DNA from: Nitrospinota bacterium
Lineage (GTDB): Bacteria > Nitrospinota > Nitrospinia > Nitrospinales > VA-1
NCBI GenBank assembly: GCA_038108555.1
Contig: JAYNIA010000009.1
Location: 33,809-71,149, forward strand
Direction of reading: 5' to 3'
DNA: 37,341 bases
Within the stretch, counting starts at the first letter, position 1. The number at the start of each line of letters is the position of its first letter. Below, piece by piece: positions 12,001-15,000 of this stretch. Position numbers: made by a program.

Positions 12001-15000
12001 ACAGAGATGGGTCTTAAAGGAATGCCAACTGAAGCAGAAGACATCATGGTTCACAGGGATATATGCCTTTTACCTAAGACAGGTGGAAGACTTCATGTTG
12101 CACATATCAGCAGCGGGGGTTCGGTCGAACTCGTCCGGCAGGCAAAAGCCAAGGGATTACCGGTTACGTGCGAAGTGGCTCCTCATCATTTCACATTAAC
12201 CCACGAAGCCTGCCGGGGTTATGATACCAACGCTAAAATGAGTCCTCCACTTAGAACAGACTCTGATCTGGAAATGATCAAGGAAGGCATGAAAGATGGC
12301 ACTATAGATATCATTGCAACAGACCATGCCCCTCATGACGTGGTTGACAAACAAGTTGAGTTCAGCAAAGCCTGCTTTGGGATTGTGGGGCTTGAAACGG
12401 CGCTTCCTTTAACCTTAAAGATGGTCGATGAAGGTGTTATATCCCTTGAGAGAGCAATAGATATGCTTACTTCACAAACCAATAAAATTTTTGATATAGA
12501 TAAAGGGACCCTGGGCGTAGGAAAAGATGCCGACATTACCCTGTTTGATCCAAACACAAAATATTCCATTGACCCCAGCAAGTTTAAATCGCGCAGCAAA
12601 AACTCTCCATACAAAGGTTGGAAAGTAAGAGGGAAAGTAATTCGCACCCTCGTAAATGGTAAAACCGTTTTTGAAAATCAATAACCTTGATTAACTTCTT
12701 AAAATTTAACAAATAGTATGAAAGCTCTTTTAGCTCTTGCCGACGGGAAAATATATGAAGGTGAACACTTTGGATCGAAAAAAGAAGTCGAAGCTGAAAT
12801 AGTTTTTAATACCAGCATGTCTGGATATCAGGAAATTATAACGGACCCTTCCTATTGTGGCCAAATGGTGGTCATGACTTATCCTTTAATTGGAAACTAC
12901 GGAATCAATCCTGAAGATTTTGAGTCTGATCGCCCTCACCTGTCCGGGTTCATTATAAAAGAACTCAGCAATGTTCAGAGCAATTGGCGATCGAGAGGAA
13001 GCCTTGATGATTTTCTTTTGGAAAATAACATTTTTGGAATTCAGGGGATTGATACCCGATCCTTGACCCGTCGGATTCGCGAAAAAGGAGCCCAGCAAGC
13101 GATTCTGTCTACGGATCTCTCTGATCCTCAAGGATTGGTTGAAAAGGCCCGCAATTCTCCAGGACTGGTTGGCAGGGATTTGGTAAAGGAGGTCACCTGC
13201 AAAAAAGCTTATGACTGGAATGAAGGTGAATGGGCAATCAAAAATGGTCAAACGCTATTGGAAGAAATCCAGGACCGGCCCTATAAAGTTTTGGTTTATG
13301 ATTTTGGAGTAAAAAGAAATATTTTAAGAAAGTTAACCCAGGCAGGTTGCAAAGTAAAAGTGGTTCCAGCAAATACCCCGGCAAACGAAGTCCTCGCGAC
13401 TCAACCCGATGGAGTTTTTCTATCCAATGGACCTGGGGACCCTGCAGCAGTTCCCTATGCAATCGAAAACGTAAAAGCCATATTAGGAAAAGTTCCCATT
13501 TTTGGAATTTGCCTGGGGCATCAGATATTGAGTCTCGCCCTGAATGGAACCACCTATAAATTAAGATTTGGACATCATGGAGGAAACCAGCCTGTTCTTG
13601 ATTCAAACTCACGAAAGGTTGAAATAACTTCCCAAAACCATGGATTTGCTGTAAAAGAAAATTCCCTAAAGGACGATGTCGATATAACTTTTTTAAATTT
13701 AAATGATAATACTGTTGAAGGAATTCAACACAAAAAGTGGCCCATATTCTCGGTTCAATATCATCCTGAAGCATCCCCGGGGCCTCAGGATTCGGAATAT
13801 TTGTTTCACAAATTTACAGGTCTTATGAAAGCAGGAAATTGATGCTCCAGGAAATTTTAGAGCAGTTATTTGAGTTCGCCGCTAAGTCGATTCCCTCCGA
13901 ACAGATTCTAGAAGCAAAAAAATCTTATCAAAAGGAAACAGGCGAAATTTATGAAGATGATCAGTCCTATAACACGAGAATGGCCCTGTTCCTTGAATGG
14001 TACCTTTTCGACAATTATATCGATGACTCCTCAACCACCATTCTTGATTCTTTATTGCAGGAAAATCCTGAAGACTGGGATGCCGATCAAATAGAAAAAT
14101 ATAAAAAAATCAAAGAAACCTTTCAGGCCTTGTATCTGGTGAAAAAAGTCAAAGACGACAGTGTAAAAGTATTGAATCTATTTACTGATGAAATTTTTCT
14201 AGTACAGGACAAAGATTCAAAATTGATCTTCAGGAAAAATGATATTTTCCAGGGGCGAATTGTTTTATTTGAGGATCAATATTATTTTACCGGCAATTTT
14301 TGTTTCCACCCCGAAAAAACTCACCGGTTTATAAAACCGGAAATAAAAAATGTTTCAAAAATCCTTATCCAGCATAAAAAGGATCTAGCCAAACTTGAAA
14401 AAGTGATTTTTAAAGCAAATAAAGTTTTGAATAATCTTGAATCAAAGATTGAAAGCTTTGAAACTAAAATCAGCCAGAGCGAATCAGAAGGTAAAACCGA
14501 AAGGCTACAGCAAAAGTTAGCTGTTTTGGTGGAGGATAAAGAAAAACAAGTCAAGCAAATTCAGGATTTGGAAACAAAAGCTTTTGTCATTAAAAACGAT
14601 AAAATAAAAATCGAAGGAAATAAACAAATCAACGCCTTGATCAACCGATTTGCCTATATGAATTTGAAATGGGAACGTTCCCGCCAAATCGAAATCTCCG
14701 ATATTTATAAAAATTAATGCCTAAACGAACCGATATTAAAAAAATCCTTCTGATAGGGTCTGGTCCCATCATCATTGGCCAGGCATGTGAGTTTGACTAT
14801 TCGGGAACACAAGCCTGTAAATCTTTAAAAGAAGAAGGATATGAGGTCGTTCTTGTGAACAGCAACCCTGCCACCATTATGACCGATCCCGAGTTTGCGG
14901 ATAGAACCTATATTGAGCCAGTCACTCCCGAAGTAGTAGAGAAAATAATTATCAGAGACCGTCCCGACGCTTTACTACCCACCATGGGAGGCCAAACAGC

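What a model noticed while it worked through the whole genome (the two positions that open the first line are those of the whole stretch)
13842..14717. An unknown OB-fold/coiled-coil protein wedged between carA and carB
In the operon pyrR-pyrB-pyrC-carA-[g01098]-carB the two subunit genes of carbamoyl-phosphate synthetase are separated by a 291-codon gene of no known family that overlaps both neighbours by one base; the same insertion is found across Nitrospinales. The predicted protein has a helical N-terminal part, a small OB-fold-like barrel and a 120-residue antiparallel coiled coil; I propose that it is a lineage-specific partner of the synthetase or of the pyr operon mRNA. Any accessory protein for this universal enzyme would be new.
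Evidence so far: carA g01097 ends 47650, g01098 47650-48525, carB g01099 starts 48525. No Pfam/NCBIfam/Swiss-Prot row. Matches in 31 of 34 genomes searched (this one plus those >=95% complete): 29 of 30 other Nitrospinales and 1 of 3 outside; 30-54% identity against 70-75% for CarA and 76-83% for CarB; broken by stops in 2 (G069, G017). In 7 of 7 fetched loci the order is pyrC-carA-X-carB with gaps of 0-10 nt. AlphaFold model from 7 sequences: pLDDT 77, pTM 0.64; Foldseek finds no whole-chain PDB match (best E 0.02) but local matches of the barrel to IF5A, eIF1A/IF1, RPA and NusA-S1 OB folds.
(Added by a program. Inside this text positions count along the whole contig: contig position 33,809 is position 1 of the stretch shown here. 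"Call 12" and the like, gene names such as g00115 and contig names such as C1 are that model's own, and its searches are not shown. The text may have been shortened before it was handed on; [...] marks where a part breaks off. The agent that wrote the report below was given it as the finding of a first reader that could run no searches.)

Follow-up and report, generated by a model that had tools for sequence, protein, structure and literature searches.

The report
Ancient DUF7986 gene riding beside carA
A real, conserved but dispensable protein of the uncharacterised DUF7986 family sits inside the pyrimidine gene cluster of Nitrospinota, myxobacteria and their relatives, yet it survives in genomes that have lost carbamoyl-phosphate synthetase, so it is probably a neighbour of that enzyme rather than its partner.

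Summary
The ORF (13842-14717, 291 aa, one-base overlaps with carA and carB) is real and under purifying selection (dN/dS 0.14). It is neither family-less nor lineage-specific: it carries DUF7986/PF25948 and is the long form of a ~210-aa single-copy protein also found in other Nitrospinota, Myxococcota (103 of 151 genomes) and Bdellovibrionota-like loci, usually at the same slot of a lepA-lepB-(pyrR)-pyrB-pyrC-carA-X-(carB) cluster. Only an ~84-residue extension of the coiled coil is Nitrospinales-specific. The synthetase-partner reading is weakened: X stays intact, under selection in the one close pair measured, in genomes where carA and carB were not found and carbamate kinase is present; it stays behind pyrC or lepB when carA moves; and it was deleted, leaving scars, in genomes keeping carAB. 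The barrel is OB-like (best Z 4.9) but net neutral. Best reading: an optional housekeeping protein-binding factor hitchhiking in the cluster; an optional pyrimidine-enzyme scaffold is not excluded (~0.2). The scan noted the same family and position before on another genome (e1-2205699).

The parts
9763..9790 (+). sigma70-like promoter candidate (TTGACA-16-TG-TAGGAT) upstream of the leader
   Evidence: 10 of 12 matches; the region holds no more such sites than shuffles (16 vs 17.7), so position is the only support
9803..9906 (+). PyrR-type attenuator leader (binding loop plus U-tailed terminator)
   Evidence: Rfam RF00515, 46.3 bits, E 4.9e-4, below the gathering score of 54; terminator-like hairpin 9882-9895
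9937..10473 (+). pyrR
   Evidence: PF00156; name from position and sequence (own knowledge)
10470..11417 (+). pyrB, aspartate carbamoyltransferase
   Evidence: PF02729 and PF00185
11398..12684 (+). pyrC, dihydroorotase
   Evidence: PF01979, PF12890
12718..13842 (+). carA, synthetase small subunit
   Evidence: PF00988, PF00117; TIGR01368 over cut-off
13842..14717 (+). gene X: stand-alone DUF7986-family protein, long (Nitrospinales) form, 291 aa
   Evidence: single copy in the genome; dN/dS 0.14
13842..14111 (+). N-terminal helical part (residues 1-90), acidic, with the conserved A-K-x2-Y-x4-G-x3-EDD...R-M-x2-F-L-E-W stretch
   Evidence: model; conservation and net charge about -5 for residues 1-60
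14118..14309 (+). OB-like beta-barrel (residues 93-156) with conserved F98, R139, H156, P157
   Evidence: weak structural matches to OB folds, best Z 4.9, best Foldseek E 6.3e-3; net charge about +0.6
14373..14627 (+). Nitrospinales-specific extension (about residues 178-262) that turns two short helices into a long antiparallel coiled coil (158-279)
   Evidence: occupancy below 40% in the 121-sequence alignment; long forms one clade, 21 of 21, support 0.83; dN/dS 0.24
14649..14708 (+). conserved basic C-terminal motif (L-x2-M-x-L-K-x-E-R-[YS]-R-x-I-x4-I-Y)
   Evidence: K276 73%, R279 75%, Y289 96% of 121 sequences; not aligned in the multidomain paralogue
14717..17953 (+). carB, synthetase large subunit
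   Evidence: PF02786, PF25596, PF02787, PF02142

Best explanation
X is the stand-alone member of the DUF7986 family: a soluble cytoplasmic helix-plus-OB-barrel protein, inherited vertically at a fixed slot of an old housekeeping cluster (lepA-lepB-pyrR-pyrB-pyrC-carA-X-carB, variously pruned) and co-translated with its neighbours. Shown: it is real, conserved, single-copy, dispensable, and kept or lost independently of carA, carB and pyrC. Inferred (about 0.6): its job does not need the synthetase; it hitchhikes on the cluster's expression. Inferred, weaker (about 0.3): it is a non-catalytic protein-binding factor (adaptor or holdase) in protein biogenesis or export, using the acidic N-terminal loop and the basic C-terminal motif as its binding surface, with the Nitrospinales coiled coil as an added arm.
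For: Kept without the synthetase: 14 of 103 X-positive Myxococcota genomes have no carA match; carB also not found in 9 of 10 of these tested, although the two genes lie apart in Myxococcaceae (no carB in any of 80 loci); carbamate kinase match in 5 of 5 tested, 3 over the cut-off. In the synthetase-less pair G093/G172 dN/dS of X is 0.11, against pyrC 0.18 and lepB 0.05. G107 and G120 lack carA, carB and pyrC matches yet keep X intact. X does not follow carA when it moves: 18 genomes have pyrC-X with carA elsewhere, next to carB in 3 of 3 of these inspected, and likewise in G115. Five metagenome loci read lepB-X with no pyr gene in the locus; lepA lies upstream in 32 of 36 such loci with enough flank. 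Lost without the neighbours: 36 of 125 carA-positive genomes; deletion scars in G009 and G061. No invariant column in 121 sequences. Family members are fused to SEC-C, TPR and HEAT domains; the SecA-type metal-binding domain binds SecB and ribosomes (abstract of 10.1101/2020.07.21.215244).
Against: 98 of 103 Myxococcota copies still directly follow carA (68) or pyrC (30), and 64 of 80 Bdellovibrionota-like loci follow carA. In this genome X stays with the pyr genes while lepA lies on another contig, with one-base overlaps kept and probably under PyrR attenuation. Most synthetase-less genomes keep pyrC next to X and a pyrB, so a link to the next two enzymes is not removed there. Whether the lepB-X metagenome loci lack pyr genes genome-wide is unknown. 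The genomes are assemblies of related lineages, not independent events. X itself has no SEC-C motif; the protein-biogenesis role rests on paralogue fusions and adjacency only. No experiment exists.
Confidence: 0.4

Rival explanations
1. Optional accessory or scaffold of the early pyrimidine enzymes: X binds CarA and/or PyrC/PyrB and helps hold synthetase, transcarbamoylase and dihydroorotase together or tunes them.
For: Directly after carA or pyrC in 98 of 103 Myxococcota copies; carA-X-carB in 31 of 32 Nitrospinales loci and 48 of 80 Bdellovibrionota-like loci; overlapping stop/start codons; stays with pyr genes, away from lepA, in this genome; a class I glutamine amidotransferase follows X in one locus without carA (L250).
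Against: No single partner is constant: X persists without carA/carB, without pyrC (5 genomes), without all three (G107, G120), and no pyrC lies in 31 of 34 carA-X-carB metagenome loci with at least 2.3 kb upstream. The enzymes are encoded without X in 36 genomes and after clean deletion.
Confidence: 0.22
2. Single-stranded nucleic-acid-binding OB protein (RNA chaperone, ribosome-assembly or translation factor), acting generally or on the cluster's own mRNA.
For: Structural rows are dominated by RPA, Stn1/Ten1, SSB, eIF1A/eIF5A and S1-type OB folds; the helix after the barrel and the C-terminal motif are basic, mean net +4 and +3; lepA, a ribosome GTPase, heads the cluster.
Against: Matches are weak (no Z of 5 or more among 48,161 chains; no Foldseek E <= 0.001) and include non-nucleic-acid barrels (SilF, CusF, NlpE, PilY2); barrel net charge about +0.6 and whole-protein median pI 7.0; PyrR and a PyrR-type leader already account for control of the mRNA here.
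Confidence: 0.2
3. An enzyme of unrecognised chemistry using conserved H156, R139 and the acidic loop.
For: H156 93%, R139 94%, W53 87%, Y289 96% conserved in 121 sequences.
Against: No invariant column; the arginine and the aromatic core are also aligned in the distant paralogue, which lacks the histidine, as expected for structural residues; no enzyme match by sequence or fold.
Confidence: 0.1
4. A non-functional or decaying insertion fixed early in Nitrospinales.
For: Broken in 3 genomes and deleted in G009.
Against: dN/dS 0.14 over 23 pairs; orthologues at the same slot in three phyla; confident fold.
Confidence: 0.02

Closest known systems
Pfam PF25948 / DUF7986 (domain of unknown function)
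   Same: Precomputed hit on this protein and on 84 of 120 and 67 of 73 listed homologues; Atlas feature score 0.97 and TM 0.92-0.96 to DUF7986 clusters.
   Different: X is a stand-alone, single-copy, position-conserved subfamily with its own G-x3-EDD loop and C-terminal K-x-E-R-Y-R motif; the Nitrospinales form adds about 84 residues of coiled coil.
Multidomain SEC-C / TPR / HEAT - DUF7986 - Xre/MbcA/ParS-C proteins (e.g. L036, 1265 aa)
   Same: Share the helical part and barrel: hhalign probability 97%, E 7e-11, 183 columns, 15% identity; architecture.
   Different: X has no SEC-C, TPR or antitoxin-like domain; the inspected paralogue does not lie next to pyr genes and does not align to X's C-terminal motif.
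OB-fold proteins (RPA14/RPA32, Stn1/Ten1, SSB, eIF1A, eIF5A, S1; also SilF/CusF, NlpE)
   Same: A small five-strand-type barrel matches locally (best Z 4.9, rmsd 2.1 over 67 residues; RPA Z 4.6, rmsd 4.3 over 99).
   Different: No whole-chain match; scores are in the range of common arrangements; barrel not basic.
AscA/YecA (SEC-C chaperone of E. coli)
   Same: Functional precedent only: a domain of unknown function joined to a SecA-type metal-binding domain works as a Sec-linked chaperone (abstract of 10.1101/2020.07.21.215244).
   Different: No homology to X was tested or shown; X lacks the metal-binding domain.

Membership tests
DUF7986 (PF25948) | Score above the family's gathering threshold with the Pfam model | not testable with these tools
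   Model absent from the local Pfam copy.
DUF7986 (PF25948) | Precomputed family hit on this protein and its orthologues | tested here: met
   P0001 listed with PF25948; 84 of 120 and 67 of 73 homologues; Atlas clusters 55-95% and 81-89%.
DUF7986 (PF25948) | Shared core fold with distant DUF7986 proteins | tested here: met
   TM 0.51-0.59 over about 200 residues to SEC-C/TPR-DUF7986 models; hhalign 97%.
SEC-C-DUF7986 multidomain proteins | SEC-C zinc motif in the same chain | tested here: not met
   No PF02810 hit in X; present in the paralogue L036.
OB-fold nucleic-acid-binding proteins | OB-type beta-barrel | tested here: inconclusive
   Barrel predicted at pLDDT above 90; best matches are OB folds but Z under 5 and E above 0.001.
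OB-fold nucleic-acid-binding proteins | Binding to ssDNA or RNA | not testable with these tools
   Only charge was computed: barrel about neutral.
Obligate subunit of carbamoyl-phosphate synthetase | Strict co-occurrence with carA and carB | tested here: not met
   X without carA in 14 of 103, carA without X in 36 of 125; carB not found in 9 of 10; deletion scars.
Obligate subunit of carbamoyl-phosphate synthetase | Physical binding to CarA or CarB | not testable with these tools
   Needs co-purification; CarB is too large for the complex tool.
Known anti-phage defence proteins (PADLOC) | Match to a defence profile | tested here: not met
   0 families at E <= 0.01 for three X forms and P0339; the paralogue matched only over its SEC-C motif.

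The most novel reading that the evidence does not exclude
X is an optional, ancient assembly factor for a bacterial CAD-like pyrimidine metabolon: a DUF7986 adaptor that bridges CarA/CarB with PyrB/PyrC in Nitrospinota, Myxococcota and Bdellovibrionota, keeps contact with whichever partner remains, and gained a long coiled-coil arm in Nitrospinales. It would be the first accessory protein of a bacterial carbamoyl-phosphate synthetase known to me (own knowledge) and the first function for DUF7986.
Probability: 0.15. Interest if true: 0.75.

Novelty: new variant of a known kind. Interest (0 to 1): 0.3.

Why it matters
DUF7986 has no paper in the searched library. This stand-alone subfamily is single-copy, selected and position-conserved across three phyla, and has an orthologue in the genetically tractable Myxococcus xanthus that is not on a published essential-gene list, so a knockout and pull-down would give the family its first function. 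If it did bind the pyrimidine enzymes it would be a new kind of accessory factor for a universal pathway; the comparative evidence makes the plainer hitchhiker reading more likely. The case also shows that tight overlap between carA and carB genes is not evidence of partnership.

Tried and rejected
Complex prediction of the short-form X with CarA and PyrC (residues 1-420) from G067, each with an alignment: no answer, score 0.00 in two runs, no controls folded; not evidence either way; X with CarB, with PyrB and with itself were not tried. Search for fused forms (428-2000 aa) with alignment A1: none at E <= 0.001 among 8000 scored candidates, weak by the tool's own note. Long open frames around X in G054 and others are upstream GC-rich frames, not a CarA fusion (G054 inspected). 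RNA runs: no RNA holder listed. PDB by sequence: nothing below E 0.27. NCBIfam: only coiled-coil noise. Wide fold search of the long form returned only generic coiled coils (SMC, ESCRT-III, prefoldin, Z up to 11.6) and was set aside. PADLOC: none. A lead that the SEC-C antiphage protein Rugutis (PMC11381338, two passages seen) might be a DUF7986 protein was not resolved: a plasmid search with the paralogue domain listed SEC-C proteins at 21-24% identity and no lactococcal record among the 25 rows shown of 352. Cluster-member names could not be looked up, so taxonomy of the unnamed proteins rests. Desulfobacterota and other phyla could not be sampled for lack of a genome handle. Paper searches: DUF7986 0 papers; recalled locus tags 0 papers; searches listed nothing on this gene. 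PMC2776167 (two passages) held nothing relevant; 'genomic hitchhiking' is my recalled term. dN/dS in more distant synthetase-less pairs gave 0.15-0.70 for X with similar values for pyrC and lepB, or saturated dS; these are uninformative in GC-rich DNA and only the close pair G093/G172 is used. Sequencing error as cause of the three broken copies: not excluded for G014 and one G026 lesion (A-rich runs), but all four lesions fall in X and none in the five neighbours.

Full report
Observation. A PyrR-type leader lies at 9803-9906 (46.3 bits, E 4.9e-4, below Rfam's gathering score of 54). X matches in 55 of 61 genomes of the order; carA-X-carB was seen in 31 of 32 loci (30 genomes, one fetched twice; the last locus ends before carA). 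X is under purifying selection: median dN/dS 0.14 against 0.08 for carA and 0.06 for carB over the 23 of 91 pairs with unsaturated dS. It is single-copy in this genome.

Family. The protein is not family-less. The homologue table lists PF25948 for it and for 84 of 120 rows; the Atlas names this family DUF7986 and places the protein in DUF7986 clusters by features (0.97) and structure (TM 0.92-0.96). The local Pfam copy lacks the model, so formal scoring was not possible. A search without word index gave 509 relatives at 50% clustering; beyond the 291-aa forms most of the 150 listed are 203-244 aa and match residues 1-175. These short forms keep the C-terminal motif; the difference is one insertion at about residues 178-262. 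The long forms are one clade (21 of 21, support 0.83) whose sister is a short form from another Nitrospinota order. So only the coiled-coil extension is Nitrospinales-specific. Distant paralogues carry the same core within HEAT-TPR-SEC-C-DUF7986-Xre/MbcA/ParS-C chains (hhalign 97%).

Structure. With 121 sequences the long form folds at pLDDT 96.3, pTM 0.88, the short form at 95.7, 0.91: five helices, a barrel (93-156), two long helices, a short terminal helix. Foldseek gives no match at E <= 0.001. The wide search with the short form gives best Z 4.9 and rows dominated by OB folds, both nucleic-acid-binding and not. No column is invariant. The N-terminal 60 residues are acidic (about -5), the barrel neutral (+0.6), the following helix and C-terminal motif basic (+4, +3).

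Wider synteny. In 80 loci from named records, mostly Myxococcaceae, X follows carA in 74, pyrC in 1, neither in 5, and carB is in none; the cluster starts with lepA-lepB. In a sample of 151 genomes of that phylum, 103 have an orthologue (E below 1e-20; five more genomes had only distant paralogues and were counted negative): 68 after carA, 30 after pyrC, 5 after neither. In 80 metagenome loci of another clade, labelled Bdellovibrionota-like from the Atlas (two of the three best clusters; the third is Nitrospinota), X follows carA in 64, lepB in 5, something else in 4, and 7 are too short; carA-X-carB occurs in 48; lepA lies upstream in 32 of 36 with enough flank. The position is therefore ancestral to these phyla, not a Nitrospinales insertion (inference).

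Is it tied to the synthetase? Four results say not strictly. (1) 14 of 103 X-positive genomes have no carA match; carB was not found in 9 of the 10 tested, and 5 of 5 tested have a carbamate kinase match, 3 over the cut-off (carA-positive relatives were not searched as a control), which suggests real replacement rather than assembly gaps. X is intact there and has dN/dS 0.11 in the one close pair. (2) G107 and G120 have no carA, carB or pyrC match and keep X; G107 keeps a pyrB over the cut-off, G120 only a weak match. (3) In 18 genomes carA lies elsewhere while X stays behind pyrC; carA is next to carB in 3 of 3 of these inspected and in G115. Five loci read lepB-X with no pyr gene in the locus. 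(4) X is absent from 36 of 125 carA-positive genomes. In G009 (97% complete) the 23 bases between carA and carB are the first and last bases of X, and in G061 (96%) the 36 bases are X's first 12 codons with the start changed: two independent deletions. Three more genomes hold broken copies. In Table S5 of PMC11046052 (passages of the main text, searches in supplement file 1 and its part 17 of 27 seen) no essential gene is listed between the SPOR gene and aroC of M. xanthus DK1622; this interval is 19,325 bases there and 19,334 in G076, where it holds lepA to X, so the orthologue appears non-essential, as do its neighbours.

Against this: 98 of 103 copies still abut carA or pyrC; this genome keeps X with the pyr genes while lepA is on another contig; most synthetase-less genomes keep pyrC-X and a pyrB; the genomes are related and mostly drafts; the lepB-X contigs could not be checked genome-wide.

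Mechanism. The pattern fits a gene with a fixed slot in an old cluster from which neighbours are removed around it. I commit to an optional, non-catalytic, protein-binding housekeeping factor that does not need the synthetase (independence about 0.6; protein-biogenesis or export role about 0.3; overall 0.4). The second part rests only on the family's fusions to SEC-C, TPR and HEAT domains, on lepA-lepB adjacency, and on the precedent that a SecA-type metal-binding domain ties a chaperone to SecB and ribosomes (abstract and outline of 10.1101/2020.07.21.215244). Rivals: optional scaffold of the early pyrimidine enzymes (0.22), nucleic-acid-binding OB protein (0.2), unknown enzyme (0.1), junk (0.02).

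Comparison and novelty. Closest is DUF7986; membership is met on precomputed hits and fold, untested against the model's threshold. It fails the test for an obligate synthetase subunit. I found no paper naming DUF7986 or the recalled locus tags; subscription papers and most supplements are not searched. Verdict: a new variant (stand-alone, position-conserved subfamily with a lineage-specific coiled coil) of a known, uncharacterised family; interest 0.3.

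Noticed in passing
window 6952-9513 (-), stop at 9148-9150: The 121-aa and 729-aa ORFs are in one frame, separated by a single TAA where the lysine of a P-loop-like GxxGxGKT motif would be (motif recalled); the long part carries many TPRs. 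Looks like a broken or mis-sequenced NTPase-TPR signalling gene.
   Followed up: partly
G093, G172, G156, G107, G120: Several Myxococcota genomes have no carA or carB match but carry a carbamate kinase; four of five tested (G093, G121, G156, G107) have a pyrB over the TIGR00670 cut-off. Suggests replacement of the synthetase as carbamoyl-phosphate source.
   Followed up: partly
L269 (G009) and L270 (G061), carA-carB junctions: Short deletion scars of gene X remain between carA and carB.
   Followed up: yes
P0244, P0257: 314-327-aa relatives carry a different long insertion between the post-barrel helix and the C-terminal motif, suggesting the same site was extended more than once.
   Followed up: no
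L033 (G067) 10291-11643: A DNA methylase fragment and two unknown ORFs are inserted between pyrB and pyrC, like a restriction-modification cassette.
   Followed up: no
L189-L268: In 31 of 34 carA-X-carB loci of the Bdellovibrionota-like clade with at least 2.3 kb upstream no pyrC lies in the locus although pyrB does in all 34.
   Followed up: no
L250 5690-6388: A class I glutamine amidotransferase follows X in a locus without carA; relatives of it lie 4-5 kb from X in L266 and L241.
   Followed up: partly
L036 4356-8150 (G064): 1265-aa HEAT-TPR-SEC-C-DUF7986-Xre/MbcA/ParS-C protein; related multidomain paralogues occur in many Myxococcota.
   Followed up: partly
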